Positions 16,665 through 60,931 of a DNA stretch of 64,000 bases are shown here, piece after piece. Position 1 is the first letter of the stretch. Every line of letters begins with the position of its first letter. Source of the stretch: Strigamia acuminata (Eukaryota); the NCBI GenBank assembly GCA_949358305.1, contig OX442314.1:1116001-1180000 (forward strand), read 5' to 3'. The notes under the pieces were generated by a model, which saw nothing but the letters and a program-made list of their open reading frames with translations, did no database searches and was not told where the DNA came from. The position numbers were made by a program, and so were the translations under genes.

Positions 16665-19121
16665 GAAGTGAATTATATCATTAACGGGCTTCGAGTGCTC
16701 CACCCGGATTTCTTGGTGGATCGGAACGAAGTATACGCGATGGTTGAAACCTTGAGTGCGAATCCCAACAGAAGAAACATCGTAATTGATCGTTTGATCG
16801 CCGAACGGTTAAAGCAACCCGTACAAGTGCCGTTGCACATCCCAGAAGAAAACCAACCGAACACGTTGAACGAATTGATCAACGATGTTGAGGTCGTGAG
16901 CAGATTCGTCCCGAACAAGAGCCGGGAGGAAATCCTCGCGTATCTGGAGGCGCATCACGGGAATGCAAACCGGGTGCGCTTAGTCATCGGCGAGTTGCTC
17001 GATATGCGCGGGATGGCGCCGTTTCCCGCGACGAACACAGCCCCGAATGCCGGGAATAACGGGCCGGAAGCAATCGCGTCCACTTCGACCGAAAAGAGTA
17101 TCCATGTGTCGGCGACGATGGAAAAAGTCAACTTGGTTTTGGAGCTCTTTCCGGACGCTGATCCCGAATACCTTCGCACTTTTCTGGAGAGATGGAAGAA
17201 CGATGTAAATTACATAAACGCGACGGTCAACGGGTGGTTGGAGAGTCGTTCGTATCCCAAGTTGGCCGAAGCACAAAAGGCGGCGGTCAAGCGGAAGTTT
17301 GTCGAAAGGTTTTTTCATTATTTTGTCTATTTTATCTCGTTTTTATGGTGTTTCTACGAACAAAGCGCTTTTAATGTTGATTTTTCATGATTTGTCGTTG
17401 TCTGTATTGATTTTTGTCATCATTTCCACTGAATTTGTTTTGCAGTAAGTTCAGCGTTGAGGAATTCCTGGAAATGTTCCCAGACCCGGAGAACTACTTC
17501 AAAAACAACGACCGAGTCGTGAGTGCATCGTACCGGTTGCACGTCGAATGCTATGTCAGTAACCAGTTCCGATACGCGTACAAAAACGATTTGACGCAAG
17601 TGATGGAGAAACATCGTTTCCACCTCACGCCCATCATTAAAGAGATGAATGCGCTCTGGAACGTTTCGCCCACTTACCGTGAATTAATAAAGGAAATAAC
17701 AAATTGTGACTGTCTGGTTTTATCCAGGGTAACCTAGGGTCAAGATACCCTGGGGTGGGACGCATGCTCACGTAAATAAAGACAAGAGACTCCAGATTGT
17801 TGGGTTGGGTGACCTTTAATTCGTTGTTTAGTGGTTGGAGATCTACCGTCTAACTGGCCAATATTTTGGTCATAAATTACTTTTAATGATGAGTTTATTG
17901 TTGTTTTATTTACTTAATTTTAGCATTATTAGGTCTAATATTAGGCTTAATACTACTATATATCAAATGGAATTAGAAAATCGCCTGTGCAGAATGGGAT
18001 GTACAGTAGGAATTTAGCATCAAAATACCGGGCTTACCTCGGGGCCATTGGACAGTGTGGTTCAGTGACACTTCGCACCTTTGGGTGGCCGAACGGTCAC
18101 AAAATAATCAACTTACTTGATGAATTCGATTAATTCCAGAACCGTTAATCAAGAAAAGGAGGGAGAACTTGAGGAAAAAGAAGGTGAAGAGTCCCCTGAA
18201 AGTGATGCCACAACAAATCGACGAACTCTTCTACAAAGAGAAGTTGTTCATCGAGATGGAAGACAGGATCATTCGTACAGTTTAAAGAGCAAAAATCGTG
18301 TCGTGCAATTACGAGTCATTTCTTTTCTAGAATACAAGAAGGACAAGGAGGCGGAACGACTGAGTAAAATCGAAGTGGCGAAAGCAAACGACGAACTGAT
18401 GGAGTGCAGTTGCTGCTTCGAGGACGAAGTGCTCTTGGAGGACATGCTGCAGTGCACGGACGGGCACTTGTTCTGCAGATCGTGCATCCGGCGTCGCGCC
18501 GAGGTGCACATCGGCCAGGGCAATTACCACTTCCCGTGCCTCGACCCGTACTGCGAGCGCGAGTTCCCGCCCGTCGTGCTGCAGAGTGTTTTACCACCCA
18601 ATGTGTTTTCTAACGTCGTACGCAAGATGCAGGAGGAGGAGATCCGGCGCGCCGACATCCCGGATCTCGAGTCGTGTCCTCACTGCTCGTTCTGCGCCAT
18701 CATTCCGGACGCGAACCTCACGATCTTTCGCTGTCTCAATCCGGAATGTCTCAAAGTGACGTGCAGGTGACGTAAAAATGAAAAAAAGGAATAAATAAAT
18801 GCTAATTTAGTTTATGAATGAAGGTTGTGAAAGGAACCCAACCACCTCCCGCTGCGTTGCGACGAGATCGAGCAGAAACCGGAAGTACAGTTCCGCACCT
18901 ACGTCGAGGACCAGATGACGGACGCGTTGGTGCGCACGTGTCCCAAATGCAAGCGGCGCATCGTCAAAGAACACGGCTGCAATAAGATGACGTGCACGTG
19001 CGGCCAGATCTTCTGCTACGTGTGTCGCGAGGCCATCCAGGACTACAAGCATTTCGACAATGGAAGGTGAGTTAATGATTGAAGTGGAATGCAAATTGAT
19101 GAATTAATCCAATTTCAGGTG
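16665..19121 (+). pseudogene. RNF216-like RBR E3 ligase copy A (exons 2-6)
   Basis: Near-identical to the copy at 44389. Intron 1 is interrupted by element 2, TGC>TGA at 18828-18830 in the IBR, and the last exon is deleted after the acceptor at 19118. Confidence 0.88.
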
Positions 19122-19896
19122 AATTTGAAAATTGTCTTTATGATTTTTTACATGATTAGCACTTCTTCTTGAAGAAAAAGAGGAAGAAGAAGACATTCAG
19201 AGCGAAATTTCGTCCGACGCGTGGGACTCGTGCATCGATTCAACAGAATGCGAATGTAGCGACGAGCAAAGTTTGTGTCGCTCGGACGACAACGTTTCGT
19301 ACGCCTCGTACTCCACTCCGACTTCAGCGACGCCAACTCGGACGTCTTCTACTCCGACAACGACTTTGTTCTCGAATAAAATCAAATAAAGTCAAATGTA
19401 AAACGATAAATGGATGGACTGCTTTATTTACTAGACCTTTACTAACAAAACAACCTGCAACTAAAGAGAAGAAATTGCGCATCTTCACATTATATCAGTA
19501 GACGTATGACAAAAATAAACAATGAAAACATATGGATTTGTTTACTTTGTGGCTCTTTGTTTCACGGAGTTCGAGAAAGCCCTTTGATTTTTATCTTCGA
19601 CTGGAAATATGGAGGCGCATATCGTTTTTGTTGGTCGAATGGTCGCCACCGATCGATCTCCGTCTAGCGGTCCATCTTTCGACGAAATTCAACTTTGTAT
19701 CAACAAACAACCACAAATCAAACACAACGGCGCGAGTTCAGCGCGTGAGATTCCAAATTCATCTCATCGAGCCGTGCAAGTTTCGCCTTTCATCTTCGAA
19801 TGTCGACGAAAAGGGCTGAGAGCTTTTCGGGTTCTTTTTCCCGTTTCTTTTCACATAGTTGAGCCGTTATAAATATCAATAAATAACTGGCTTTTT

Positions 19897-21400
19897 ACGT
19901 CACCTGCACGTCACTTTGAGACATTCCGGGTTGAGGCAGCGGAAGATCTTGAGGTTCGCGTCCGGAATGATGGCGCAGAACGTGCAGTGTGGACACGACA
20001 CGACTCGAGATCCGGGACGTCGGCGCGGCGGATCTCTAATCAATAAAACCGGCGGTTTTATTGATTTAATTTGATAGCAGCAAATTGATTCAGGTATTTC
20101 TGAGTAATTAATTAAACTTCGGATTAATTGAATAACTGGCACTTAAAGTACATCGATTTCTGCAGTGCTCGGACGGCCACTTGTTCGGCAGGACACAAGC
20201 AGGCAGAGATGCACATCGGCCAGGACAATTATGTTACCAGTTCCTATGCCTCGACCAGTACTGCGAGAGCGACTTTCCGCCCATCGTGCTGCAGAATGTT
20301 TCACCGTGATATGCAAGATTCAGCTGCGCAAGATTCAGGAGGAGGCGCGCCGACATGCCGGACCTCGAGTGGTGTCCGCACTGCTCCTTCTTGTCCCACC
20401 TTCTTGGCACCCCCCTCCAGCCGATGCAGTTCATCATCGTTAGAGAATTGAGGACAACTGACAAGTGAGTTGAAATGAGATCGATTAACTTTTGTGACTC
20501 ATCAATCATTAATTCATCTTCCGTTGTCGAAATGCTTGTAGTCCCTGATGGACTCGCGACACACGAGCAGAAGTGTTGTCCGCACGTGCACATCATCTTG
20601 TTCTTTGATGATGCGCCGCTTGCATCTTGGACACGTGCAGAGCAACGCGTTCGTCATCTGGTTCTCGACGTATGTGCGGAACTGCACTTCCGGTTTCTGC
20701 TCGATCTCGTCGGTTCCACACTGCTCGTTCTGCGCCATCATTCCGGACGCGAACCTCAAGATCTTTCGCTGCCTCAACCTGGAATGTCTCAAAGTGACGT
20801 GCAGGTGACGAAAGAAGAAAAAAGGAATAAATAAATAAAATGCTAATTTAGTTTGTAAATGAAGGTTGTGCAAGGAAGCGAACCACCTCCCGTTGCGTTG
20901 CGACGAGATTGAGCAGAAACCCGAAATGCAGTTCCGCACGTACGTCGAGGACCAGATGACGGACTCGCCGGTGCGCACGTGTCTTCGGTGCAAGGACTAC
21001 AAGCATTTCGAGAGCGGAAGGTGAGTTAATGATCGATGAGTCACAAAAGTTAATCAATCATTTCAACTCACTTGTCAGTTGTCCTCAATTCCCCCACGGA
21101 TCTCCTCCTCCTGAATTTGGCGCACGAGGTTTGAAAATACGTTTGGTGGTAAAACACTGCAGCACGATGGGCGGGAACTGGCTCTTGGAGTATAGGCCGA
21201 AGCACGGAAACTGGTTCTTGTCTTGGCCGATGTGCACCTCGGCGTGGCGCCAAATGCCGGTTGTGCGGAACAAGTGTCCGTCGAGCACTGATGCATGTCT
21301 TGGATGAGCAGCAACCGCACGTCATCATCAGTTGTTCTTTTCCTTCGCCGTTGCGATTTTTATCTGGCTCTCCGTTTCTTTGTACTTTTTAAATTCTAGA
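19897..21400. pseudogene. Scrambled RBR-derived fold-back (inverted-repeat) locus
   Basis: RBR exon and intron pieces in alternating orientation. 20163-20712 is reverse-complementary to about 20900-21290; 19897-19995 is reverse-complementary to about 20716-20812. Confidence 0.85.
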
Positions 21401-21805
21401 AGTGGAATTAAATGTAATTACATGCCACAATTTTTGTTTTTCAAAGCTACGCACGTTTCATTCTGTCTTCCATTTCCAAGAACAATCTCTGTTCGATGTT
21501 CGATGTTCGATGTCGATTGTAGCGTCTGTTCAACATTCGTTACATTAAATACAAACAAAATACCGTATTGTCACGACACTATGGTATTCTTGCTTCCTTA
21601 GCCAAGGCTCTTATTCGAGGGTGGCGCTTAATCAATTTGAAGCTTGTTAATTTAATTTCCTTAAGAAAAACCAACCTTTAGCTATTAATTACTGTATAAA
21701 ACAATCAGCAAACACTTTGTTTTGACCAGCTGACTGGTGAAAGTTTGAAGCTTTTAGTTGAAGCGCTAATTATCTTAAAGAAGTGAATCTGGAGTTTTAA
21801 ATATA

Positions 21806-21947
21806 CTCTGTCCACACTCAAGAGTAATCCTGGAAGCTGGGCCCCCATTGGCCGAGCTATTTCACTAGTGTAGCAGTAGTTGCATTGCAGTTCTAAGTAG
21901 GCCAATGGGAGCCCAGCTTCCAGGGTCACTCTTGAGTGTGGAAAGAG
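21806..21947. mobile_element. Short MITE with TA target site (Tc1/mariner-like)
   Basis: About 50-bp terminal inverted repeats CTCTGTCCACACTCAAGAGT... / ...ACTCTTGAGTGTGGAAAGAG, flanked by TA. Confidence 0.7.
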
Positions 21948-22179
21948 TATAGTAGAATATCGAATTAAATAAATTATGAACCACTATAAATTTTACTTGA
22001 GATTTAGTTTATTATCACATAAACAGTCACAAATTTGCAGATAAAAAAAGTCAATAGCAAAAAAATTTCCTATTCAAGAAAGTGGTATTCTCTTTCGGTA
22101 GTCTTTAAAAACAGTGTTTGATCCGAATCATGCCATTATTTTTACATTTAAATGACACTGAAATTAACGCACTTCTCAG

Positions 22180-22400
22180 CTTTTCTAGTCTCGAACGACG
22201 ATGAACTGCATCGGCTGGAGGTGCAGGAGGGCCACAAGAAGGCGGGACAAGAGAACATCAAGACGCATCCGGAAGCACTTGAATTCATTAACCCTTCTGA
22301 AACTATCCGTTCAGTATGAGCGCAAAGCAGTGGCAGATGGACTGGCAATAGGGCCAGCTTGCCCAATAGCAAGTGGGCCCTGAGTGCGCCTGATGAAGTA
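22180..22400 (+). pseudogene. Decayed RBR last-exon fragment
   Basis: TCGAACGACGATGAACTGCATCGGCTGGAGGTGCAGGAGGG matches exon 7 of the intact copies, with frameshifts. Confidence 0.7.
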
Positions 22401-24249: not shown

Positions 24250-27200
24250 TTAATTGGATGCACGAACGAAACGACGAATACCGGTACCTGCGTTGTCTGC
24301 CGCTTGTGTCGCTTGCGCAACCGGCCTGGGTGGGACCCTCGGCGGGGGTTTGGGCGGGGCCCTCGGCGGGGGTTTGGGTGGGGCCCTCGGCGGGGGTTTG
24401 GGCGGGGTCTTCGGCGGGGGTTTGGGCGGGGCCCTCGGCGGGGGTTTGGGCGGGGCCCTCGGCGGGGGTTTGGGCGGGGCCCTCGGCGGGGGTTTGGGCG
24501 GGGCCCTCGGCGGGGGTTTGGGCGGGGCCCTCCGCGGGGGTTTGAGCGGGGCCCTCGGCGGGGGTTTGGGCGGGGCCCTGGGAAGAGGCCTGGGCGGAGG
24601 CCAGAGCGGAAGCCTGGGCGGAAGACTGGGCGGAGGCCAGTGCGGAAGATTGGGCGGAGGCCAGTGCGGAAAATTGGGCAGAGGCCAGGGTGGAAGACAG
24701 GGTGGAGGCAACGGCGGAAGACTGGGCAGAAGCCAGGACAGAAGACTGGGCGGAGGCCTGGGCGCAGGTTGTACTGGTCGGATGATGGCGTTGGCATTGG
24801 CATTGGCGGCAACCATCAGTTGGGCTTGGGGTTGCTGCTGCTGCTGCATGAGTGGCTGGAAGACGATTTGGCCACGCTCGTTGACCATGGGCATGAAGCC
24901 TTGCGCGTACTGTTGCTGGGCCTGCTGCACGGCCGCGAACGGTGTTTTGGTCGGGTCGTGGCGCAGCTCGACCGCCTGCGCTTCCGGATGCGTCTCGATG
25001 TACTGTTGTTTCGCCTTCTTGGCGCCTTGCTCCACCTCCAGCCGATGCATTTCGGCGTCGTTCGAGAATTTGGGACACCTGAAGTTGCATTAATTCGTCA
25101 ATTTGCATTCCACTTCAATCATTAACTCACCTTCCGTTGTCGAAATGCGTGTAGTCCTTAATAGCCTCGCGACACACGTAGCAGAACATCTGGCCGCACG
25201 TGCACGTCATCTTGTTGCAGCCGTGTTCTTTGACGATGCGCCGCTTGCATCCGGGACACGTGCGCACCAACGCGTCCGTCATCTGGTCCTCGACGTACGT
25301 GCGGAACTGCACTTCCGGTTTCTGCTCGATCTCGTCGCAGCGCAGCGGGAGGTGGTTCGGTTCCTTGCACAACCTTCATTCATAAACTAAATTAGCATTT
25401 TATTTATTCCTTTTTTCATTTTTACGTCACCTGCACGTCACTTTGAGACATTCCGGATTGAGACAGCGAAAGATCGTGAGGTTCGCGTCCGGAATGATGG
25501 CGCAGAACGAGCAGTGAGGACACGACTCGAGATCCGGGATGTCGGCGCGCCGGATCTCCTCCTCCTGCATCTTGCGCACGACGTTTGAAAACACATTGGG
25601 TGGTAAAACACTCTGTAGGACGAAGGGCGGGAAGTCTTGCTCGCAGTACGCGTCAAGGCACGAGAAGTGGTAATTGCCCTGACCGATTCGCACCTCGGCG
25701 TGGCGCCGGATGCACGACCTGCAGAACAAGTGCCCGTCCGTGCACTGCAGCATGTCCGCCAAGAGCACTTCGTCCTCGAAGCAGCAACTGCACTCCATCA
25801 GTTCGTCGTTTGCCTTCGCCACTTCGATTTTACTCAGACGTTCCGCCTCCTTGTCCTTCTTGTATTCTAGAAAAGGAATGACATGTATTTACACTACACG
25901 ATTTTTGCTTTTTAAACTGTACGAATGATCCTGTCTTCCATCTCGATGAACAACTTCTCTTTGTAGAAGAGTTCGTCAATTTGTGGTGGCATGACTCTCA
26001 GGGGGCTCATCACCTTCTTTTTCCTCACGGTCTTCCTCCTTTTCTTCATTAACGGTTCTGTAATCAATCGAATTAATCAAGTACCGTATGAATGACCTCA
26101 CATTAAGCCGCATGCCAGTATTGTGAAAGTTATACTGGCATGACGATAAACCCCTGCCTTTTTAACGGCATGGCGATGTGAGGACGAATTTTTTAAAAGA
26201 ATTTAGCCAAAACAATCAAAGAAATTATTTTAGATGTCTAAAATCTACGAAATTTGTATAAATTTTCAAAAATTTTAGTAACAATCTTCAGAATATCAAT
26301 AAAACTCGAATTTCAGGCCCAAAATCCCATATAATCATTCATCTGGGCTCTTTAATGTGGCATGCCGGTCTTTACTTTTTGAACAAAATTTTAAAAACCT
26401 GCCACAGTAAACCCAGGCCCAACGGCATTATTCGAATTAGTTGATTATTTTGTGACCGTTTTGTCACCCAAAGGTACGAAGCGTCACTGACACACACTGC
26501 CCAATGGCCCCGAGGTGGGCCTGGTATCTTGGTGCTAAATTCCTACTGCGCATCCCATTCTGCACAGGCGATTTTCTAATTCCAGTTGTTATTTAGTAGT
26601 ATTAAGCCTAATATTAGACCTAATAATGCTAAAATTAAGTAAATAAAACAACAATAACCTCATCATTAAAAGTAATTTATGACCAAAATATCGGCCAGTT
26701 AAGCTGAGGATCTCCAACCACTACCGGTAGACAGAGTATTAAAAGCCACCAAACCCAACAACCCTCAAGTCTCTTGTCTTTATTTACGTGAGCATGCGTC
26801 CCACCCCAGGGTATCTTGACCCTAGGTTGCCCTGGATAAGACCAGACAGTCACAATTTGTTATTTTCGTTTAATAATTCACCGTCAGTGGGCGAAACGTT
26901 CCAGAGGGCATTCATCTCTTTCATGATGGGCGTGAGGTGGAAACGGTGTTTCTCCATCACTTGCGTCAAATCGTTTTTGTACGCGTATCGGAACTGGTTA
27001 CTGACGTAGCATTCAACGTGCAACCGGTACGACGCACTCACGACTCGGTCGTTGTTTTTAAAGTAGTTCTCCGGGTCTGGGAACATCTCCAGGAATTCCT
27101 CAACGCTGAACTTGCTGCAAAACAAATTCAGTGAAAAATGATGACAAAAATCAATACAAACAACGACAAAACATGAGAAAAAAAACACATTAAAAGCGCT

Positions 27201-27863
27201 TTGTTCATAGAAACACCACAAAAACGAAATGAAATAGACAAAATAAGTGGAAAACCTTTCGACAAATTTCCGCTTGACCGCCGCCTTTTGAGCTTCGGCC
27301 AACTTGGGATACGAGCGATTTTCCATCCATTCGTAAACCGTGGCATTTATGTAATTCACATCGTTCTTGCATCTCTCCAGAAAAGTGCGCAGGTATTCGG
27401 GATCAGCGTCCGGAAGGAGCTCTAAAATCAAGTTTTCTTTCTCCATCGTCGCCGACAAATTGTTATTCTTTTCCGTCGAAGAGGACGCGATTGCTTCCGG
27501 ACCGTTATTCCCGGCAATCGGGGCTTCATTCGTCACTGGAAAAGGTGCCATCCCCTTCATATCGAGCAATTCGCCGATGACTATCCGCACCCGGTTTGCA
27601 TTCCCGTGGTGCGCCTCCAAATACGCGAGGATTTCCTCCCGGCTCTTGTTAGGAACGAATCTGCCCACCATCTCCACATCTTTAATCAAATCCTTGAACT
27701 TGTCCGGTTGGTCTTCAACTGCATGCGGCGCGGGCGCAACGGCGATCATGCCGGGCATGTACGGAATGTCGTCTTCCTCGTCGTCTTCGTCGTCGTCGTC
27801 TTCGTCTTCGTCATTGTCATTGTCGCTGCTGTGGCGGGAATTAAAAAATTTAACTTTTTTCAT
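24250..27863 (-). CDS. RNF216/TRIAD3-like RBR E3 ubiquitin ligase, copy D (827 aa)
   Basis: Exons 27863-27256, 27114-26882, 26057-25923, 25866-25431, 25373-25131, 25078-24250 join in frame. RING1-IBR-RING2 with catalytic GCNKMTC; Pro-rich tail. Confidence 0.88.
24325..24765 (-). repeat. 24-bp coding minisatellite (PPRAPPKP x11 plus diverged 8-aa units)
   Basis: Tandem GGGCCCTCGGCGGGGGTTTGGGCG units on the + strand. Confidence 0.95.
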
Positions 27864-28260: not shown

Positions 28261-28399
28261 GTGAAAGGATTTCACGGATTTTGAGCAAAACGAGCGGTTC
28301 GAGGTTGCCAGGCGACTCCAGCGACTGCTGTGTTCATTTTGAATCGTTTTTATACAGGACAGAGTAATAAATTCGAAATAAGTTTCAAGCTTAAGCAAA

Positions 28400-28965
28400 A
28401 ACAAGGAAAAACAAGGAAGAGCAGCGCCTGAGTAGAATCGAAGTAGCGAAGGCAAACAACGAACTGATGGAGTGCAGTTGCTGCTTCGAAGAGGAAGTGC
28501 TCATGGAGGACATGCTGCAGTGCACGGACGGGCACTTGTTCTGCAGGACGTGCATACGGCGTCAGGCAGAGATGCACATCGGCCTGGGCAAGTACGAGTT
28601 CCCGTGCCTCGACCCGTACTGCGAGAGCCACTTCCTTCAGCACGTTTTACCGCCCATGGTATTCTCCAACGTCATGCGCAAGATTGAGAAGGAGGAGATC
28701 CAGTGTGTCGACATCCCGGACCTCGAATGGTGTCCGCACTGCTACTTCTGCACCGCCGTGCCAAGCGCCAACGTCAAGATCTTCCGCTGCCTCAACCCGG
28801 AATGTCCCAAAGTGACGTGCAGGTGAAAAGAAAATTAATAAAAACAAAAATTTTTTTTTTGTGTTAATTAATTTTCTTTAAAAAGACTTTGCAAGGAACC
28901 GAACCATCTTCCGCTACGTGTGTCGCGAAGCCATCGAGGACTACGAGCATTTCAAGAACGGAAGG
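28400..28965 (+). pseudogene. RBR fragment E (RING1-IBR exon plus internally deleted RING2 exon)
   Basis: [11 protein letters not shown]...CLNPECPKVTCR, then a deletion joining HLPL directly to the YVCREAI codons; no 5' exons. Confidence 0.8.
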
Positions 28966-36799: not shown

Positions 36800-36950
36800 T
36801 AATGCAGACACTGACAACTCGTTAGTCGCCATCGTTGCCACCGTCATCAACATCATCTACAAGTGCATCATGGGGCGAGTCTTCAAATAGTATTTCCAGG
36901 ATCACAGCACCCTGTTTTCAGCCATTAGCTGCATCGCAGCAACGTCAAAA
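36800..36950 (-). pseudogene. 3'-end fragment of an LRR paralog
   Basis: FDVAAMQLMAE...DGD-stop plus the shared 3' UTR CGAGTTGTCAG. Confidence 0.6.
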
Positions 36951-43710: not shown

Positions 43711-44388
43711 TTTATAGTTATTTGCTTTATTTTGATTGCTTTATGTGTTTTTCAGTATCAGGTGCATTTATTAACGCATAAACAGTCGTTTAAACACGTT
43801 TAAAATAAGTTTTGAACGAGATTTTCGGTTATTATTATTATTATTTGAGTCAGATCGACGCCACTACGATGTAAGGTGAGCAATTTTGCACCATTATTTT
43901 TTGTTTACGACTAAAGAAGAAGAAGAATGATACTTACGTGTATAGTTAGGCCTGGAAACAAAAAGAAAAGCGAGGGCGAGGAAACAATGCAGGTGGCTGA
44001 TTCTCAAAATGCGTGAAATCGTTTCACGAATAATAATAATAATAATAATAATGAAAATAATAACAATAATATTGCAACTAAAATAATCAAAAAGGATGAT
44101 AACGATATAGAACGACGGTCACCTCACAACTTTTGGCTCACATTTCCAAATCTAGGCCTGAAAGCCTCTTTCGGGTTTTTCTTGCAACAAATGTTTTTTC
44201 GATTTTTTGAATTTTCGACCACCCTGTGTCAGTTGACGGCTCGAACTTGATCGCATCAAATTTCCAGGTGAAAATCCGAGTTGTTCGTGCAAAACCCGTT
44301 CTAACTTGCCGTTTCTATTTACAGAGTGGAACAGTTATGGATATCAACAAAAAAGCCATCTGATTTCGTAATTTAAGAAAGAAAAACG

Positions 44389-47300: not shown

Positions 47301-47762
47301 GTCGAGCTGCGCCACGACCCGACCAAAACACCGTTCGCGGCCGTGCAGAAGTCCCAGCAACAGTGCGCGCAGGGCTTCATGCCCATGGTCAACGAGCGTG
47401 GCCAAATCGCCTTCCAGCGACTCATGCAGCAGCAGCAAGCCCAAGCCCAACGGATGGCCGCCGCCAACGCCAATGCCAATGCCATTATCCGACCAGTACA
47501 ACCTGCGCCGAGGAATCCGCCCAGGCCTCCGCCCAGACTCCCGCCCAGGGCCTTGCCCAGGACCATGCCCATGCTCTTGCCCAGACCCCCGCCGAGGGCC
47601 TTGCCAAGGCTTCCGCTCTGGCCTCTGCTCAGGCCTCCGCCCAGGACCCTGCCCGTGCTCCCGCCCAGACCCCCACCGAGAACTCTGCTCAGGCCGGTTG
47701 CACCAGCGACACAAGCGGCGGACAACGCAGGTACTCGTCGTTTCGTTCGTGCGTCCAATTAA
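44389..47762 (+). CDS. RNF216/TRIAD3-like RBR E3 ubiquitin ligase, copy F (850 aa)
   Basis: Exons 44389-44673, 44741-45393, 45530-45762, 46216-46350, 46407-46842, 46900-47142, 47195-47762 join in frame. Acidic N-terminus, [15 protein letters not shown]-like module, RING1-IBR-RING2, Pro/Arg tail. Confidence 0.9.
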
Positions 47763-48779: not shown

Positions 48780-49260
48780 TAAGAAGACAATTCGGCAACA
48801 TGCATCGTCCAGCTGCCACTCTTCGAGTTTGTTGACAATGGAACCACGGAAGATTTTCTGAGAAAACTGCGGCAAAAAACTCCACACAGGAGCTGGACAT
48901 AAGCGGCTCACGTGTCCTCAAGTTTCCAGAACAGACATAACCCCGAATATCTTCACCCTCAAATTGCTGCACAGTTTGACGAAATTCAAGAAGTTGCACA
49001 AGTTGTACGTCGACATGCGTTATGACTCGGACGTGAAAATAGCGGAGCAAAATGATATGTTTGATCGAGTTTGTTTGCGCGATTTGCGGTTTGATAAATT
49101 GGTGAAATTTTCCCCATATGACAGCACAGATCGTTGAGTTAGTTCTGGTTATTTGTTTGAGTTGTTAGACATGTGTCCCAAACTGGAGATTCTCGTTCTT
49201 TTGCAGTGCTCAGACTTCAGTAACAAAATTGCGCACGAGTTGGCCGACGTGTTGGACGTT
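48780..49260 (+). pseudogene. Decayed LRR paralog L3
   Basis: Fragments FTLKLLHSLTKFKKL and FELLDMCPKLE with stops and deletions. Confidence 0.7.
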
Positions 49261-49665: not shown

Positions 49666-51056
49666 ATGCAGACATTAGCAGACATGGCGATTGAAATTCT
49701 TTTTAGGTGTCTCATTCAATGGAACGTAGAAGATATTTTTGACGTTAAAATGAAAGAGACGATGGGATTAATCGCTTATTTCGATGCACTACGTAAGCGA
49801 CACACGGATGTGTTAAATTTATTTCGTAATTAAAATTGTCAATACACACGGTTCTGTTTAGCCCATACTGTTCGTGACAAAGTGTTGAACAGCTTCGATG
49901 ATGATCGGTTTTATCACAGTTATCGCGGGTTAGAGGCGTGGGACATTGCTCCATTTTTATACGAGCAGCAGAAAAGTCTTAAGTTGCGACTTACAAGTCG
50001 GAATTTTGATTTGGAATTTTTATTTAAAGTTTGTGGCTACAAATTAAAAGTAAGTATTAAGATTGTTATATCGCGATTCGTTCTAATGAGATTCGACTGT
50101 ACAATTTTACAACTCGTCATTGCCGTGTGCGACATCCTTACAAAGATTTGTTTACAATTCTTTTAATTGTATCTACCGAATAGAATCTGACGAGGTTAGA
50201 ATTACCTTACCTGAACAATTCTCCACTGACGGCCAACTTCGTCGAACAATTCCGCCACATCACGCCAAATCTACGCACGCTACATTTCTTCGGTAAAATT
50301 GAAGACGCCGCGATCGTGTACATCGTCCAGCTGCCGCTCGTCGAACTCGCTGTTTATGACTCGGCGAACTTGGAGTGGATAACTAAAGTGTGCGAAGTAG
50401 ACTCCGCTCTCAGGAAAACGTTGCGAGTGTTCCGGTTGATGATGGGCTACTTCCATTGGTACAATTTTGAATTGACCATTCCCAAAATACTGCGCAGTTT
50501 GTCGAGATTTAAGGAGTTGCGCTCCTTGCACCTCATGATTTTGGATTCGGTCTCGCACATAATGGAGAGAAACGAGCTGTTTTATCGCGATCGTTTGCGC
50601 GGTTTGCGTTTTGATAGTTTGCTGGAATTTTCCCTGTTCGATTACGACGGTCACTGGAATTCTTACGGTTTATTTTTCATGGTGTTGGATGTGTGTCCGA
50701 ATTTGGAGAAACTCGTTCTTGCTAATATCCACGGTTTTAGCGATAAAATTGCGGGTGAGTTGGCTCAAATGATGGCGAAGAGGAAACTCAAACATCTGGA
50801 AATTAGTGAGTGCAATTTTTTGGGGCCGGCCGCCATTGAGGAATTGATGAAAATCGAGTGTCTGGTTAAGTTGGAGGTGACATTACGAGTTGATGAGATC
50901 AGAAGAGAGCCTTTCGACGTTGTAAAGATGCAGCAAACGGCTGAAAGACACGGTGTCAATTTGCAGCTCGGGTTTCTTCCTTGGGACGTGGAGTACAATC
51001 GGTACAAGAAGCTCAACGAGTTTAAACTTCACGATTTTTTTTGTAGTGAAAAATAA
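49666..51056 (+). CDS. BC-box/Cul2-box LRR protein L4 (395 aa), putative CRL2 substrate receptor
   Basis: Exons 49666-49792, 49862-50049, 50184-51056 join in frame. QTLADMAIEIL (BC-box-like), spliced LPHTVRDKVL (phi-P-xx-phi-xxx-phi), CPNLEKLVL-type LRRs. Confidence 0.8.
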
Positions 51057-51592: not shown

Positions 51593-54410
51593 ATGGTGGT
51601 GAAATCATTATCAAACTTGGCTATTAAAATTCTTTTCCGGGCTATTGTTCAACGGCCGGTTGAAGAAATGGAGGACGATCGAATGAGAACCACGGTGGAA
51701 TTAATGAATTACTTCAATCAAGTCATTGCTGAATGGGATCGCGGAAATTTGATTGTAAATTTTTTTTTTTATTTGATAAATTTGTTGTTCCGGTTTTTCA
51801 GTACTGAATCTTGTCAAAGTCCAGCCGTGGATAAACTGGGTGAGTGTCACTCGGATTTGTGCATTGATTTCGCAATTATTAATGTGAAATTATTTGATTT
51901 AGCTCTTCGTAAAGAAATGCTAGAGAAGTTGAATGACGAGGAGTTTTGGGACTCAAGTGTTCGCGAGCCAGACGCGTGGGATGTTGCTCTATTTGTACAC
52001 GAAGAGCAGACAGAACTGCAGTTGTGGTATATGAGTCCAAATTTTGATTTGGAATTTTTGTTTCGAGTTTGTGGCTACAAGTTGAAAGTGAGTGGACAAA
52101 GTGAACTAAATCAGCATACAAAAATTTTATTTTCAAGCAGAAAATGCACTCTCAAGCAAAAAAAAATGCATTTTCAAGCAAAATAATACATTTTCAAGCA
52201 AAACAATGCATTTTCAAGCAAAATAATGCATTTTCAATAAAAAATACTGCATTTTTAACCAAAATAATGCATTTTCAAGCAAATTAATGCATTTTCAAGC
52301 GAAATAATGCATTTTTAAGCAAAATAAAGCATTTTCAAACAAAATAATGCATTTTTAAGCAAAATAATGCATTTTTAAGCAAAATAATGTATTCTCAAGC
52401 AGAAATGTGCATGTAGAAGTGCAAACGTTGCACTTCAAGCTGCAAAAATGGCATCTTGAGCAGGGGCGGATCTACATACGGGCTAATGGGGCTTGAGTCC
52501 CGGGCCCCCAAATTCTAGGGGGCCCCCAGGACGCAGGGCCATGTAGCAAAAAAAAAAAAAAAAGAAGGTCGCTAAAAAACAAAAAAGAAGGTTGCTATTA
52601 AAATTTGGCCGAGGATATTCTTACGTACGTACGTGAGAATAACGTTTGCCCGACGAGCCGCTATTCTTACGTACATACGTACGTACGTACGAAAGGGCAA
52701 AGATGAAACCCACCAGCATATTTGCCCCTCAAAAAAAAACAAAATGAATGCATGAAACAAACACAAAATGAATGCATGAAACAAATAAAAGGAACAGGAA
52801 CGCCAAACAAAATTCTTGCAGAACAATGCGCGACACGACACGTGTAGGTGGTATACGTAAGAATAATGATCCCCCCTGGCGGCCCGCAATGTACGTAGGA
52901 ATAGCCATACGTTATTCTTACGTACGTACGTACGAATATACAGTTTTTCAGGGGCCGAGAATGGGCTTCCCTGCAATTTACCGTTTGTACGTAAGAATAG
53001 CCATCCGCTATTCTTACGTACGTACGTAAGAATAGCCACGGCGTTAAAATTTTCGATAAAGGGGCCCCGAAAAAACCTCAAGCCCCGGGCCCCCGAAAAG
53101 CTAGATCCGCCCCTGATCTTGAGGTGTAAAAATAGCATCTTTCCGTGTGGAAGTAGCATCTTAATGTGCAGAACTTGCATTTTCTAAAAACTGCTTTATT
53201 GGATAAAATAATATTTTGTACATGAAAAATTTGCATGCACACTAATGTAAAATCCAAAAGACATGCACTTACAACATGCTTTTGTTATGTGCGGCATTCT
53301 TAAAAAAAATTGTTTTAATTCTACTAATTGCATTTATCCGCACAGAATCTAACGGTGTTAGAACTGCCCGAAAATTTTACGCTGACAGCCAATGCCTGCA
53401 AACAAATGTGTCAGTGTTTACCATATTTAGAGAAACTAGATTTGTCTCACATCTTTGTTGAAGACGACGCGGCGACATACATCACCCAGATGCCACTCGT
53501 CGAACTTCACGCTTGGGAAAGCACCGAAGATTTTGTGCGCAAACTGTGCGCAGAACGCTCCACACTGAGCAAAACGTTGGAAGTGTTCATGTTGAGCCGT
53601 GAACTTTCAATGGACTGCTACTGCTTGATATTAAACACGATGAAATACATCGAACACTTGGACACTAACGATTCCAGGTGGCTCAAAGCGCTGCTGCCGA
53701 TCGGCGCGCCACCGCAGCGATACAATCTGACAAGATTGGTGTTTCAGGGCGACGCCATTCAGGAAGAGCTGGAAATTGCCGTGCTCACTTGTCCGAAAGT
53801 TTACGATATTGAAATTGCTCCGAATATTTTCACCTTAAAAATGCTGCACACACTGACGAAATTCAAGCAGTTGCGCAGGTTGTACTTCAACATGTTTAAC
53901 GACTCGGACGTGATAATGGCGGAGGAAAATGACTCGTTCGATCGAGTTTGTGTGCCCGATTTGCGGTTTAAGAATTTGGTGCAATTTACCCTGTCCGATC
54001 CCGACGATCGTTGGATTACATCTGGTTTTTGGATCGAGTTGTTGGGCTTGTTTCCCGAATTGGAGGAATTCTCTTTTTTGACTTGCCCCGGATTCAGTAA
54101 CAAAACTGCGCAAGAGTTGGCCGCCGTGATGGCGAAGAAAGTCAAACGTTTGGAATTTCGAGAATGCGATTTGCTGGGGCCGCCGGGGGTTGAAGAGCTG
54201 TTAAAAATCGATTCTCTGGTGGAGTTGAGTGTGAGTTTGCACATTAATGACACAAGAAAACAACATTTTGATGTTGGTGCGTTGCAGCTAATGGCTGAAG
54301 AACACGGCGTTAACTTAAAGTTATATTTACGAGACCCGTTCGATGTGATAGTTGCAAATATGATGGCTGAACATGATGGTGGCAATGATGCCGACAATGA
54401 TGGCGACTAA
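51593..54410 (+). CDS. BC-box LRR protein L5 (5' splicing uncertain; terminal exon 53346-54410)
   Basis: KSLSNLAIKIL, shared EPDAWDVALF..FDLEFLFRVCGYKLK exon, open LRR exon. Confidence 0.7.
52125..52405. repeat. About 20-bp AT-rich intronic tandem repeat (AAAATAATGCATTTTCAAGC)
   Basis: Roughly 14 units; shorter arrays at about 56445-56520 and, inverted, about 60280-60410. Confidence 0.85.
52461..53115. mobile_element. hAT-type MITE, 8-bp TSD ATCTTGAG
   Basis: TIRs CAGGGGCGGATCTA / TAGATCCGCCCCTG; TSD at 52453-52460 and 53116-53123. Confidence 0.9.
52607..53043. mobile_element. Mutator-like MITE nested in the hAT MITE, 9-bp TSD TTAAAATTT
   Basis: About 35-bp TIRs with TACG palindromic repeats; TSD at 52598-52606 and 53044-53052. 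Confidence 0.8.
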
Positions 54411-54928: not shown

Positions 54929-55476
54929 TGCGAGTGGCGGTCGGTCGCCTTACGGCCAGGGGAGGCCCACGGGGTGTTTGGACATCATTCACAATGTAAA
55001 TACAAACACAAAAAACACGCAGTTTAGGATTGATATATCTTTAATGGCGTAGTTGTCTCGGGGTTACTGCGTTCACCCTTTAGCAACCCAACCCATGTGG
55101 CCGTGGGCCTTTTGGGCAGCGAGGTCGGTTAACATTGGCACGTCATGCCTTGCGGCTTGACCCAACAGGTCGCTTCCAGTCCCTTCGGTCTTGAGGGCGA
55201 CTCCGCCAGTTATTGACATTGTCGTTGCTATTGCCGTTGCCATTTCCGTTGCGATCGTTGTATCGCACATCCTCTGTAAAACGCAACTAGTCACTCTCGT
55301 GTGTGGAGTTGTACTGTGTCGGTTGTGGTCGTTTGACCACAGTCCGACAGCTTGCAGAATCTTCTGTCCTGTTTAGCTGTAATTTAGGACGCAGCTCCGG
55401 CAATCCGCCATTGCAGTTGCTGAGGATCATCCTCGTAATGTCGCCAGCGCCGACTGGTGGCAGCCAGTTGGTCACA
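54929..55476 (-). mobile_element. Solo LTR (548 bp) inserted in a dead LRR exon 1
   Basis: TG...CA ends with a GACA duplication. Removing it restores QTLTDVAIQIFIRCLI, paralogous to L4 exon 1. Confidence 0.75.
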
Positions 55477-55984
55477 GACATTAACAGATGTGGCTATTCA
55501 AATTTTTATTAGGTGTTTGATTTAATGCAATGTTGAAGAAATGGACGACGTTCAAATGAAATACAAAGTGAAATTAATCGCTTCTTTCGATAAACTTCGT
55601 AAGTGAAACATTCCTCACTCAACAGTGATGACAGCGATGACAGCAGCAATGATAGCGATATTAGGAGTTGTCATATTTAGGCTGTGTCTGCATTAAATCG
55701 ATTTTATTTGTATGTCATCAACCACTGTTGTAATAATTGTTGTTTTTGGTTGTTCTTGCTGTTTGTTGTTATTTTTCTACTTAATTTCGTTTATTGTTGT
55801 TTCGTTTATATGTTATGTTGTAGCTGTTGTGTATCTACGTTACAAATTTATAGTATTGTTGCTACTCAGCAACCAAAACAATGTAGACATAAATGAACAC
55901 ATCGCTGAGCTGTTCGAGCAGCGGCTCTTGTTATTTTCGGAATTTAAATCTGCCGAGTTGATGAAGGAAATTTAGAAAATCAAA

Positions 55985-57849
55985 ATGGAGCCGCAGTCTT
56001 TGTCACGCATGGCTCAAAACAGTCTTTTTCGGTGTATTATTCAACGGCCGGTTGAAGAAATGGAGGACGATCGAATGAGAACCACATTGGAATTAATGGA
56101 TTACTTCGATCAAATCATTGCTGAGTGGGATAGCAGGAATTTCATTGTAATTTTTTTTTTCATTTTATAATTTTTTTTCCAGGTACAGTAATTTATGTGA
56201 AAGACCAGCCGAGAAGAAACTGCGTAAATTAATTCTGATGAGGTTGTATTACAAGGTGTTTTGGGACGAAAGTGTTCGCGAGCCAGACGCGTGGGATGTT
56301 GCCCTATTTGTACACGAAGAACAAGACGAACTACTGTTGGGGTCTATGACTCCAGATTTTGATTTGGAATTTTTGTTCCGAGTTTGTGGCCACAAGTTGA
56401 AAGTGAGTAGAGAAATACAACTAAATCAACATAAAAAAATTCATTTTTAAGCAAAATAATGCATCCTCAAGCAAAAAAAAATGCATTTTCAAGCAAAAAA
56501 ATGCATTTTCAGGCAGGAATATGCATCTTGTGGTGGAAAAATTGCATTTTGATATGTAAACATTGCATCTTGAGGTGCAAAAATTAACATCTTGATGTGC
56601 AGATGCAGAACTTGCATTTTCCAAAAAATGCTTTATTGGATAAATATAAATCATTTTGTACGTGAGAAATTTGCACACTAATGTAGAATCCAAAAAACAC
56701 GCATATTTGTGTGTGCGACATTCTTAAAAAAAATTGTTTTAATTCTACTGATTGTATCTATCCTCACAGAATCTGACAACGTTAGAAGTCCCAAAGCAAA
56801 GTAAACTGACAGCTAAAGCCTGCAAAGGAATGTGGCAGACTTTGCCAAAGCTGTCGAGGCTCCTTATCAATGACATTGAGGCCGAAGACGACGCGGCCAA
56901 GTACATCGCTCGGCTCCCACTCGTTGAGCTTGATGCCGACGGAACCAGCGAAGATTTTGTGCGAAACTTATGCAGAGAAGACGGCACAATCAGGCAAACG
57001 TTGCGAAAGGTCAAGTTAGACTATTCATTTTCAATTCCATGCTACTGTTTGATATTGAACACGATGAAATTCATCGAATTCGTGGACACCTTCGATGCCA
57101 AGTGGCTCAAAGGGCTATGGCCGATCGGCGCGCCACCGCAGCAATACAATCTGAGAAGATTGGAGTTCTGGGGCACCGGCGTTGAGGAAGAGGTGCAAAT
57201 TGCCGTACACACTTGTCCGAAAATTTACAAAATTGTCATCACTCCGTTTACTTTCACAATAAAAACGCTGCTTGCACTGACGAAATTCAAACAGTTGGGC
57301 ACGTTGCACTTGGACCTGCGTGACGACTCGGACGTGAAAATGGAGGAAGGATACGATGAGTTTGATCGAGTGAGTTTGCGCGATTCGCGTTTTATTAATT
57401 TGGTGCAACTTTTGCTGTACAATGACAAGGATCGTTGGACTACCTCTGGGTATTTGTTCGAGTTGTTGGGCATGTGTCCCAAACTGGCAAAACTCTCTTT
57501 TTTGGCTTGTCCCAGCTTCAGTAACAAAACTGCGCGCGAGTTAGCCGCCATGATGGCGCAGAAACTCGAAGTTTTGGAAATTCGAGAATGCGATTTGTTG
57601 GGACCGTCGGGGATTAAAGATCTGTTAAAAATAGATTCTTTGGTGGAGTTGAAAGTGAATTTGCGAGTAGATGAGATACGAAGACAACATTTCGACGTTG
57701 GGGCGTTGCGGCTAATGGCTGTAAAACACGGCGTGGACTTACAGCTACAATTAGAACATCCGCCGAATTATCTGATGGAAATGGAAGAAGAATTTCTCGA
57801 CCCGCACGACGATATGCTTGAAGATGATTCCGGCAATGAAAGCGACTAA
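55985..57849 (+). CDS. BC-box LRR protein L6 (5' splicing uncertain; terminal exon 56770-57849)
   Basis: PQSLSRMAQNSL, shared EPDAWDVALF exon, open LRR exon with acidic tail. Confidence 0.68.
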
Positions 57850-58170: not shown

Positions 58171-58309
58171 CATTAATTCGATTTGTTTGTATTCAAAAAT
58201 AAAAAGTCAATATGCCATGTCGAACACTAAGTGTCATATGTAGATCCGGAACAAAACTTATTTACGAATTTTGTCCGAAATTAAGCAGAAATCAATATTT
58301 ATCATATTT

Positions 58310-58890
58310 ATGAAAATAGCAAAGGAAAATGATGCGTTTGATCGAGTTTGTTTGCGCGATTTGCGGTTTTATAAATTGGTGATTTTTGACCTTTCGATAA
58401 AAACGATCGTTGTTCAAGTTTTTGACCATTTGTCCCAATCTGGAGTATCTCGATCTTTGTCATTGCTCCGGCTTCAGTAACAAAATGGCGCACGAGTTGG
58501 CCGACTTGATGGCCCAGCGGGATTACTGGTATTTCCTGGTGAATTATTTACTCCGTTTGTTGCGCTTTCGATACAGAATTCCCAGTCCAGGCCTGAAAAA
58601 CAAACTCCACTGGTTGAATACCGGTATAGTTAAATGCGGCTTGTTGGGGCCGTCGGGGATCGATGGTCTGTTACAATTCGATTCTCTGAAGGGGTTAGAA
58701 GTGTATGGAAATGATGAAATCAGAAGAGAACATTTTCACGTTGCTAAAATGCAGCTAATGGCTGAAAAACTCGGTGTGAACTTGCACCTAAGATTCGAAA
58801 AGCCGCTCGATGGTTTACTTGTAGATAATGGTGGCGATGATATACAAATACTTGTCGGTAATGATGGCGACTACCGAGTTGTCAGTGGCT
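58310..58890 (+). pseudogene. LRR 3' fragment L7
   Basis: ENDAFDRVCLRDLRF and CPNLEYLDL..FSNKMAHELADL, with a frameshift and no 5' part. Confidence 0.75.
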
Positions 58891-59362
58891 GCGTGTCTGT
58901 AATTAATTCGATTTTCTTGTATTCAAAAATAAAAAGTGAATATGCCTTGTCGAATAAGTTTCATATGCAGTTCTGGAACAACCTTTTTTGTGAATTTTCG
59001 ATTACATTTTCGATTTTTGGATTATATTTTCCATTTTTTGATTACATAAAACTAGCAAAACCGCGCAATGTGTTTTGCAATATAATTGCTACAACTGCGC
59101 CAAGTAGCGACAAATTATGACATCAGTGCCTGATATGATTCGGTTAATAATAATCATTAATCCTAATAAACATGTAAATAATCGCATATTTTTATTGTGA
59201 CTTGTGTGAAAACTGAAATAATATTATACAATGTATTGACAACTAACAATATATGCAAAAATGTAAAAAGACAATATTGATAGAACACGAGCAATTCAAA
59301 AAGAACATTACGAATAGACATGATGAACATTTGGTGAAAAGCGAAATTATTATCGTACGATT

Positions 59363-60028
59363 ACGATCCTTGTCATTGGAAAGGGAAAGTTGCACCAATT
59401 TATCAAACCGCGAATCGCGCAAACTCACTCGATCAAATTCATCGTATCCCTCCGCTGTTTTCACTTCCGAGTCGTCACCCAGGTCCAAGTACAACGTGCT
59501 CAACTGCTTGAATTTCGTCAGTGCAAGCAGCATTTTTATTGTGAAAGTAAACGGAGTGATGACAATTTTGTAAACTTTCGGACAAGTGTGTACGGCAATT
59601 TGCACCTCTTCCTCAACGGCGCTGCCCACAAACTCCAATCTTGTCAGATTGTATTGCTGCGGTGGCGCGCCGATCGGCCATAGCCCATTGAGCCACTTGG
59701 AATCGAAAGTGTCCAAGAATTCGATGAATTTCATCGTGTTCAATATCAAACAGTAGCATGGAATTGAAAATGTAAAGTCTAACTTGACCTTTCGCAACGT
59801 TTGCCTGATTGTGCCGTCTTCTCTGCATAAGTTTCGCACAAAATCTTCGTTGGTTCCGTCGGCATCAAGCTCAACGAGTGGGAGCCGAGCGATGTACTTT
59901 GCCGCGTCGTCTTCGGCCTCAGTGTTATTGATAAGGAGCCTCGACAGCTTTGGCAATGTCTGCCACATTCCTTTGCAGGCTTTAGCTGTCAGTGTACTTT
60001 GCTCTGGGACTTCTAACCTTGTCAGATT
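59363..60028 (-). pseudogene. Truncated inverted duplicate of the L6 terminal exon (L8)
   Basis: Highly similar to 56770-57435 including the upstream intron; homology ends at NDKDR (59363); no 5' exons. Confidence 0.85.
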
Positions 60029-60509
60029 CTGTGAGGATAGATACAATCAGTAGAATTAAAACAATTTTTTTTAAGAATGTCGCACACAAATATGCGTGTT
60101 TTTTGGATTCTACATTAGTGTGCAAATTTCTCACGTACAAAATGATTTTTATTTATCCAATAAAGCATTTTTTAGAAAATGCAAGTTCTGCATCTGCACA
60201 TCAAGATGTTAATTTTTCACCTCAAGATGCAATGTTTACATATCAAAATGCAATTTTTCCACCACCAGATGCATATTCCTGCCTGGAAATGCATTTTTTT
60301 TTGCTGGAAAATGCATTTTTTTTTGCTGGAAAATGCATTTTTTTGCTGGAAAATGCATTTTTTTTGCTGGAGAATGCATTATTTTGCTGGCAAATACATT
60401 ATTATGCTAAAGAAATAAAAAATTAAATTAAATTAAATTAAATAAATTATTTATTGCCGCACTTCACAAGTATCAAAGCAAATTAAAATGCATTCAATTT
60501 GTATCTAGA

Positions 60510-60931
60510 GAGTAACTTTGATCGTATAAACACGCTTCAAAAACTCCATCCGGATTTCGTAGTAGATCCGAATCCGATTTACGACTTGCTTGCATCGTAG
60601 AGTAAAAATGCCAACAGAAGAAACACCGTAATTGATCGGCTGATCGCCAAACGGCTGAAGGAACCCAAAGAAGCGCCGTTGTACATCCTGGAGGAAACAG
60701 ACAAGTTCGAAGAATTGCTGAACGATGTGGAGGTGGTGAGCAAGTTCGTTCCGAACAAGAGCCGGGAGATGATCTTCACGAGAATCCGAACCGGGTGCGC
60801 ATCGTCATCAACGAGTTGGAGCCGTTTGCTGTGGCGAATAAAGCCCCGAATGCCGGGAATAATGGGCCGGAAGCAATCGCGTCCACTTCGAGCGAAAAGA
60901 ATAACCATGTGTCGGCGACGATGGAAAAAGT
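60510..60931 (+). pseudogene. RBR exon-2 fragment I, cut by element 3
   Basis: Duplicate of about 43100-43530; ends at ATGGAAAAAGT where the LTR begins. Confidence 0.8.

What the first reader, a model, noticed from the sequence alone, without database searches (positions are those of the whole stretch)
16665..60931. Co-amplified ubiquitin module: RNF216-like RBR ligases intermixed with putative CRL2 LRR receptors
Seen: about 9 RBR copies or fragments and about 10 LRR copies or fragments alternate across 44 kb in both orientations, with intact and dead copies side by side. Known: RNF216 is usually single-copy and ubiquitinates TLR/TRAF3 immune components; ARIH-type RBRs cooperate with cullin-RING ligases; amplified cullin adaptors mark intracellular defence in nematodes and plants. 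Inference: this is a fast-evolving ubiquitin-based defence or genetic-conflict locus with variable LRR sensors and a dedicated RBR. The physical partnership is untested.
Basis: partly seen in the sequence, partly recalled or inferred. Interest (0 to 1): 0.85.

Follow-up and report, generated by a model that had tools for sequence, protein, structure and literature searches.

The report
Centipede cluster of fast-evolving ubiquitin receptors
In a likely centipede genome, two ubiquitin-system gene families have multiplied side by side: the leucine-rich-repeat copies change unusually fast on their predicted binding face, likely in an arms race, while the neighbouring RNF216-type ligases stay conserved and are likely neighbours rather than dedicated partners.

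Summary
The two families are real. There are 8 RNF216-type RBR loci (3 with intact reading frames) and 9–11 LRR copies or remnants, in both orientations, live beside dead. They do not alternate: they sit in five blocks, more clumped than random (P=0.009), and no duplicated unit carries both. The closest proteins are all from the centipede Strigamia maritima, and each family forms its own window-specific clade.

The main new result is selection. Exposed LRR strand positions have dN/dS about 1.9 (2.1–2.6 at concave positions), against 0.14–0.42 at buried ones. The RBR copies are under purifying selection (0.23). The LRR genes begin with a BC-box consensus, but the Cul2 box is clean in only one intact copy. 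CRL2 membership is therefore likely, not shown.

Verdict: a birth-and-death cluster of likely Elongin-BC/cullin substrate receptors under diversifying selection, of the kind known from nematode F-box genes. It shares an unstable region with an unusual RNF216 amplification. A joint module is possible (about 20%) but unsupported.

The parts
16665..19066 (+). R1: dead RNF216-type RBR copy; exons 2-6, stop codon at the start of exon 6, exon 7 missing, 5' end abuts an LTR
19892..22277 (.). R2: scrambled RBR exon 5-7 pieces on both strands (6 pieces)
24250..27863 (-). R3: intact RBR, 827 aa, 6 exons; in-frame loss of the first N-terminal repeat; long proline-rich tail
28398..28965 (+). R4: RBR fragment (exon 5, remnant of exon 6)
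30070..32548 (+). R5: most divergent RBR; open 697-aa model using a downstream ATG and a shifted first donor
33858..36096 (-). L1: LRR gene; large third exon open; first exon has a one-base shift unless an 85-base intron is spliced
36772..36951 (-). LRR 3' remnant
37390..38456 (-). L2: broken LRR third exon (frameshift), first exons absent
43093..43716 (+). R6: decayed RBR exon 2
44389..47762 (+). R7: intact RBR, 844 aa, 7 exons; acidic N-terminus, helical UBA/CUE-like repeats, RING1-IBR-RING2 with catalytic Cys, proline-rich tail
48783..49255 (+). L3: LRR fragment with a stop
49666..51056 (+). L4: intact LRR gene, 395 aa, 3 exons; BC-box and Cul2-box consensus both met; most divergent copy
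51593..54410 (+). L5: intact LRR gene, 498 aa; BC box met, Cul2 box lacks its proline
55475..55600 (+). LRR first-exon remnant with BC box and a stop
55985..57849 (+). L6: LRR gene; third exon open; 5' part in frame only with a short weak intron; Cul2 box lost
58310..58806 (+). L7: LRR fragment
59246..60031 (-). L8: truncated inverted copy of the L6 third exon (94% identical)
60501..60931 (+). R8: decayed RBR exon 2, 92% identical to R6, cut at 60931 by a likely LTR element

Best explanation
This is a tandem birth-and-death cluster in which a family of likely Elongin-BC/cullin substrate receptors with leucine-rich repeats is diversifying its predicted binding face under positive selection, likely to tag changing foreign proteins for destruction, while an RNF216-type ligase multiplied in the same unstable region, likely without being their dedicated partner. 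Shown: gene structures, block arrangement, separate clades, selection patterns, motifs. Predicted: an RNI-like LRR horseshoe behind three N-terminal helices, modelled on the S. maritima relative. Inferred: (1) the first helix binds Elongin C and recruits a cullin, most likely CUL2 for copies that keep the Cul2 box; (2) the concave strands bind substrates; (3) the substrates are fast-changing proteins of pathogens or selfish elements; (4) the RBR copies are kept as active enzymes but were copied by the same local unequal crossing-over and rearrangement, each family duplicating on its own.
For: Selection on LRR exon 3 (6 copies, 350 codons, own codon-model code): M1a vs M2a LRT 25.6, about 10% of sites at omega 4.1; M8a vs M8 26.1; holds without L4 (16.7) and with L4/L5/L6 only (17.5); largest LRT in 73 null simulations 6.3. 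The 60 exposed xxLxLxx positions have omega 1.88 against 0.66 elsewhere. By motif position: 0.14, 1.53, 2.63, 0.37, 2.36, 0.42, 2.12, 0.99; 0 of 5000 random site sets reach it; other polar sites give 0.80. dN(exposed) exceeds dS in 13 of 15 pairs, and omega is 1.95 after dropping the first 62 codons. RBR: omega 0.23, no positive class (LRT 2.0). BC-box consensus (PMC4878042 passages) met in 4 of 5 window first exons; both boxes together arose in 6 of 20000 shuffles of L4. Model pLDDT 87.6 with helices at 2-18, 28-39, 44-56; the Elongin-C partner Rad7 is among the top fold matches (Z 20.5, rmsd 6.6, 344 aligned). Blocks, not pairs, and no shared duplicated unit. Each family is one clade beside its S. 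maritima relatives.
Against: Both families amplified at the same place over overlapping time (RBR dS 0.14-0.69, LRR dS 0.07-0.93), and both are ubiquitin-system genes; this is suggestive and was not tested against a genome background. Read depth hints at more near-identical copies of both outside the window, and whether these are linked is unknown. The RBRs do have an acidic N-terminus and weak CUE-like repeats, parts that help ARIH ligases bind neddylated cullins. The Cul2 box is clean only in L4 among the intact or near-intact copies. Fold matches to F-box proteins score as high as Rad7 (FBXL2 Z 21.8), and ZYG11B scores lower (13.9). No expression data.
Confidence: 0.6

Rival explanations
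1. Joint module: the LRR receptors pick targets through Elongin BC-cullin, and the co-located RNF216-type copies prime or extend ubiquitin on them, so selection keeps the two families linked and co-amplified.
For: Same locus, overlapping duplication ages, both lineage-specific. Variable sensor plus conserved enzyme is the pattern such a module predicts. Acidic N-terminus, 29 D/E in the first 70 residues of R7; a review notes acidic N-termini of HHARI, TRIAD1 and TRIAD3 as suggested cullin binders (PMC3940038 passages). Depth suggests further copies of both.
Against: No pairing or shared duplicated unit. No Ariadne domain. Human RNF216 is activated by K63 di-ubiquitin, whereas activation by neddylated cullin is described for HHARI (PMC9834252 passages). 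S. maritima accession numbers of the five LRR and three RBR relatives are not adjacent; this is weak, since it assumes accession order follows gene order and closer paralogues may be hidden.
Confidence: 0.2
2. The LRR proteins are selected sensors but not CRL2 receptors: they use Skp1/CUL1 as atypical F-box proteins, or another cullin, or (L5, L6) act as Elongin-binding decoys or sensors without a cullin.
For: Top Foldseek and VIA matches include FBXL2 and FBXL17. UniProt names two S. maritima relatives 'F-box domain-containing'. The Cul2 box is degenerate in L5 and L6. Rad7 uses Elongin C with a different cullin (recalled).
Against: No F-box Pfam hit at E up to 10 in 9 of 9 sequences. The F-box tail motif was not found in any of the 11 N-termini examined (one of these, the second L1 piece, was read out of frame). 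A BC-box helix precedes the Leu-Pro helix, which is the VHL-box order.
Confidence: 0.13
3. Passive segmental duplication with neutral decay in a transposon-rich region; neither family is under selection.
For: Most pieces are broken; LTR elements cut both ends; overall LRR omega is high (0.81); unrelated genes (zinc-finger, defensin-like, fn3 exon) share the region.
Against: Neutral decay cannot give omega above 2 at concave positions and below 0.5 at buried ones, nor omega 0.23 with three open RBR frames.
Confidence: 0.05

Closest known systems
RNF216/TRIAD3 RBR ligases (invertebrate type; S. maritima T1J958)
   Same: RING1-IBR-RING2 with the catalytic Cys motif; 72.6% identity over 405 residues of R7 to T1J958; best solved relative of T1J958 is human RNF216, E 4e-44 against 1.6e-5 for ARIH1.
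   Different: At least 3 intact and 5 dead loci in 44 kb. The RING2 zinc insertion of vertebrate RNF216, reported to set chain type (PMC9834252 passages), is absent here and in other invertebrates checked, so K63 specificity cannot be assumed.
VHL-box LRR receptors of CRL2 (PRAME, ZYG11/ZER1, LRR-1) and yeast Rad7-Elc1
   Same: N-terminal BC box, a Cul2-box-like helix, then an LRR solenoid; PRAME is also tandemly amplified (recalled).
   Different: No sequence-level relative outside S. maritima at E below 1e-10 (4 of 4 such hits are S. maritima); Cul2 box degenerate in some copies; binding untested.
Nematode F-box/BTB/MATH cullin-adaptor expansions
   Same: Clustered paralogues with rapid birth and death, proposed immune or conflict roles (PMC12951971 abstract and passages); positive selection on the substrate-binding part (recalled from Thomas 2006, not read).
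   Different: Different adaptor class (BC-box LRR), a myriapod, a far smaller family as far as seen, and an amplified RBR ligase beside it.
ARIH1/ARIH2 with neddylated cullin-RING ligases
   Same: RBR with acidic N-terminus and UBA-like elements.
   Different: No Ariadne domain; different RBR subfamily; ARIH partnership does not depend on gene linkage (recalled).

Membership tests
RNF216/TRIAD3 RBR ligases | RING1-IBR-RING2 with catalytic Cys in RING2 | tested here: met
   present in R3, R5, R7
RNF216/TRIAD3 RBR ligases | closest RBR subfamily is RNF216, not Ariadne or Parkin | tested here: met
   PDB search with the S. maritima relative: RNF216 E 4e-44, ARIH1 1.6e-5; named hits are RNF216-like. 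The tree does not resolve orthology to vertebrates
RNF216/TRIAD3 RBR ligases | N-terminal CUE/UBA-like domain | tested here: inconclusive
   Pfam CUE E about 0.009, below the cut-off
Vertebrate RNF216 (K63-specific form) | zinc-binding insertion in C-terminal RING2 | tested here: not met
   present in an amphibian RNF216, absent in R3, R5, R7 and four invertebrate relatives
ARIH-type cullin-partner RBRs | C-terminal Ariadne domain that binds cullin-RBX1 | tested here: not met
   no Pfam hit; the tail is Gln/Pro-rich; role from PMC7904520 passages
ARIH-type cullin-partner RBRs | acidic N-terminus | tested here: met
   29, 23 and 15 D/E in the first 70 residues of R7, R3, R5
ARIH-type cullin-partner RBRs | activation by neddylated cullin | not testable with these tools
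   needs biochemistry
CRL2 VHL-box LRR receptors | BC-box consensus at the N-terminus | tested here: met
   4 of 5 window first exons; L1 deviates at one position; 3 of 5 S. maritima relatives (consensus)
CRL2 VHL-box LRR receptors | Cul2-box consensus | tested here: inconclusive
   met in L4 and 3 of 5 S. maritima relatives; not met in L5 and L6; readable in L1 only behind its frame shift
CRL2 VHL-box LRR receptors | LRR solenoid after three N-terminal helices | tested here: met
   model of T1JAA4, pLDDT 87.6; LRR folds top both searches
CRL2 VHL-box LRR receptors | N-terminus matches a solved Elongin-binding box | tested here: inconclusive
   FBXL2 Z 21.8, Rad7 20.5, ZYG11B 13.9, all driven by the LRR part
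CRL2 VHL-box LRR receptors | binding to Elongin BC and CUL2 | not tested
F-box/LRR (FBXL) proteins | F-box domain by profile and its tail motif | tested here: not met
   no F-box Pfam hit at E up to 10 in 9 sequences; tail motif absent
Birth-and-death cullin adaptors under arms-race selection | clustered paralogues with pseudogenes | tested here: met
Birth-and-death cullin adaptors under arms-race selection | positive selection on the substrate-binding surface | tested here: met
Birth-and-death cullin adaptors under arms-race selection | induction by infection or germline expression | not testable with these tools
   no RNA holder listed
Linked sensor-executor module | genes paired or duplicated as one unit | tested here: not met
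   5 blocks; no continuous duplicated segment across a family boundary within the window

The most novel reading that the evidence does not exclude
A centipede has built an intracellular ubiquitin defence locus in which diversifying BC-box LRR receptors and an amplified RNF216-type ligase work together, which would be an RBR-cullin partnership outside the Ariadne family and a linked sensor-enzyme array in an arthropod.
Probability: 0.18. Interest if true: 0.8.

Novelty: new variant of a known kind. Interest (0 to 1): 0.47.

Why it matters
It gives a myriapod example of cullin substrate receptors under arms-race selection, using a BC-box LRR scaffold with no close relative outside centipedes, and it names the surface to test for targets. 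Amplification of a catalytic RBR ligase to several intact copies at one locus is unusual. If the two families prove linked elsewhere and cooperate, it would extend RBR-cullin teamwork beyond ARIH ligases. If not, it is a clear case of separate ubiquitin genes accumulating in one unstable region.

Tried and rejected
No whole genome was held, so no synteny or genome-wide count. No RNA holder listed; this is no evidence on expression. A second read-laying on the RBR-LRR junction was not obtained, so linkage of the outside copies stays open. The single-sequence fold failed (pLDDT 39.9) and was replaced by an alignment-based one. An N-terminal profile found nothing in PDB sequences at E up to 10; Pfam gave no SOCS, VHL or F-box hit. 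No relative of the LRR protein in JGI metagenomes (522 pattern matches, 0 confirmed). The ESM Atlas and the pdb_via look did not complete. Sixteen RBR-LRR match pairs with similar offsets were inspected and rejected as coincidence or internal repeats, since nothing aligns between them. No complex was predicted: neighbourhood alone gave no ground for an RBR-LRR job. Assembly artefact rejected. Literature: 'Strigamia'+'RNF216' 0 papers; RNF216 expansion search 1 unrelated paper; two searches listed nothing on this; the S. maritima genome paper's main text has 0 hits for ubiquitin, leucine-rich or F-box. Its supplements were not read, and most subscription papers are not in the library. Four look-ups in earlier findings were empty.
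Full report
Setting. The window is eukaryotic DNA with short GT-AG introns. The best protein matches of both families are from the centipede Strigamia maritima: 71% for the RBR exon and 52% for the LRR exon, the only hit of that search. I infer a related centipede. No whole genome was held. A Ty3/gypsy-type element with 99.8% identical LTRs fills 3526-16639, and another likely element begins at 60932, so the cluster is cut at both ends.

Observation. Exon mapping gives 8 RBR loci. R7 (844 aa), R3 (827 aa) and R5 (697 aa) translate without a stop; R5 needs a downstream ATG and a shifted donor. R1 has a stop before RING2 and lacks its last exon; R2, R4, R6 and R8 are fragments. The LRR family has 9 loci by protein search plus two small remnants. 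L4 (395 aa) and L5 (498 aa) are intact; L1 and L6 have open third exons but need an unproven short intron at the 5' end; the rest are broken. The arrangement does not: five blocks against 10.3 runs expected, P=0.009. No continuous duplicated segment crosses from one family into the other; the 16 offset-matched pairs were coincidences or internal repeats.

The RBR family. The S. maritima relative T1J958 matches human RNF216 at E 4e-44 and ARIH1 at 1.6e-5. I built a quick tree of the 4 longest window copies and 42 of the 120 listed hits (135 found). The window copies form one clade (SH-aLRT 97), sister to T1J958 (99), so the amplification postdates that split. The tree is midpoint-rooted and does not resolve orthology to vertebrates. 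Two or more entries also occur in scallops, a mussel, a snail, rotifers and an ostracod, and three in S. maritima, so small duplications are not rare in invertebrates; 3 intact plus 5 dead loci in 44 kb is still unusual. Pairwise dN/dS is 0.26-0.33, M0 omega 0.23, with no positive class (LRT 2.0). The catalytic Cys is kept. The vertebrate RING2 zinc insertion, which is reported to set chain type (PMC9834252 passages), is absent. There is no Ariadne domain, the part of ARIH1 that binds CUL1-RBX1 (PMC7904520 passages). In favour of some cullin contact, the N-terminus is acidic and weak CUE-like repeats follow; such parts matter in HHARI and TRIAD1 (PMC3817463 passages), and a review mentions the acidic stretch of TRIAD3 in that context (PMC3940038 passages).

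The LRR family. A search of 1.84 billion representatives with the S. maritima protein found 19 hits; the 4 below E 1e-10 are all S. maritima. The six window copies tested form one clade (96/99). An alignment-based model of T1JAA4 (17 rows, pLDDT 87.6) shows three N-terminal helices and an LRR horseshoe. Fold searches return FBXL2 (Z 21.8, rmsd 5.2, 326 aligned), FBXL17, Rad7 bound to Elc1 (20.5, 6.6, 344) and, lower, ZYG11B (13.9); these matches reflect the LRR part and do not decide the adaptor. The published BC-box consensus (PMC4878042 passages) is met in 4 of 5 window first exons. The Cul2 box is met in L4 and 3 of 5 S. maritima relatives but not in L5 or L6. No F-box profile or tail motif was found, although UniProt names two relatives F-box proteins. 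An Elongin-BC receptor is the best reading; CUL2 specifically is less sure.

Selection. I wrote codon models in Python (not PAML) for the third exon of six copies; fragments L3 and L7 were left out, and L2 and L8 are partial. M2a beats M1a (LRT 25.6; about 10% of sites at omega 4.1) and M8 beats M8a (26.1). The result holds without L4 and with L4, L5 and L6 alone. In 73 null simulations the largest LRT was 6.3. Sites were then classed by the xxLxLxx motif in 12 repeats. The 60 exposed positions have omega 1.88 (LRT against 1: 24.6), the rest 0.66, buried leucines 0.30. By position the values are 0.14, 1.53, 2.63, 0.37, 2.36, 0.42, 2.12, 0.99; none of 5000 random sets reached the exposed value, and other polar sites gave 0.80. 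There are signs of exchange between paralogues in the first 60 codons. Dropping them leaves omega 1.95 (p 6e-6), and a tree-free count gives dN(exposed) above dS in 13 of 15 pairs, which are not independent. That positions 3, 5 and 7 face the concave surface is general LRR knowledge, not measured on the model.

Beyond the window. Contigs of three runs from two studies hold the stretch; one may be the window's source. Relative to the L4 bin, summed contig depth at 90% likeness is 10-37 times higher over the RBR exons and 4-13 times over other LRR copies in all three runs. L5 has no window copy above 76% identity. The tool warns that this is no copy number, and overlapping contigs inflate it; I take it only as a hint that both families have more near-identical copies elsewhere. 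Whether those are linked is the key unknown.

Mechanism. Most likely (0.6) the LRR proteins bind Elongin C through the first helix, join a cullin ligase, and use a concave face under arms-race selection to catch changing targets from pathogens or selfish elements. The RBR copies remain working enzymes, copied by the same local instability. A joint module (0.2) fits the shared place and time and the variable-sensor, conserved-enzyme pattern, but lacks pairing and the Ariadne domain. A non-CRL2 route gets 0.13 and neutral decay 0.05. Defence and germline conflict cannot be separated: Rnf216 knockout causes male infertility in mice (PMC9114714 passage), and nematode adaptor expansions are tied to both immunity and hybrid incompatibility (PMC12951971 abstract and passages).

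Novelty. The kind is known from nematode cullin adaptors and PRAME-like genes. This family, its selection pattern and the RNF216 amplification were not found in print, within an open-access library and without supplements. An earlier unchecked AI note describes a similar LRR cluster with other ubiquitin genes in another genome and judged it mostly ordinary duplication; it is not used as support. Verdict: new variant of a known kind, interest 0.47.

Noticed in passing
window 41899-41947 and 42017-42129 (+): Two-exon gene for a 53-residue peptide with a hydrophobic leader and an acidic six-cysteine defensin-like core; weak matches to plant defensins (E 0.013 in PDB; Pfam below cut-off). The S. 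maritima genome paper reports finding no antimicrobial peptide homologues.
   Followed up: partly
window 38623-40314 (+): Open frame with 19 C2H2 zinc fingers built from near-perfect 84/252-base repeats, lying where the first exons of LRR copy L2 should be.
   Followed up: no
window 3526-16639: Young Ty3/gypsy-type element on the minus strand (LTRs 99.8% identical; gag, protease, RT, RNase H, integrase) with an extra 512-codon frame at 4751-6286 that has no Pfam match.
   Followed up: no
window 42-2510 (+) and 61988-64000 (+): Further retrotransposon gag-like frames at both ends; the sequence from 60932 on has very high read depth.
   Followed up: no
window 52461-53115: Short inverted-repeat element inside the second intron of L5; reads show many insertion sites and a joint that skips it.
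   Followed up: no
window 31424-31859 versus 46407-46842: R5 is much closer to the other RBR copies in the RING1-IBR exon (dS about 0.3) than upstream (0.7-0.9): gene conversion or high GC3 constraint.
   Followed up: partly
window 22745-23221 (-): Lone fibronectin type III-like exon among the RBR fragments (Pfam E 0.002).
   Followed up: no
window 50108-50741: L4, the most divergent LRR copy and the only one with both boxes clean, has the lowest read depth of the laid stretch and lacks about two internal repeats; it may be the stable member of the family.
   Followed up: partly
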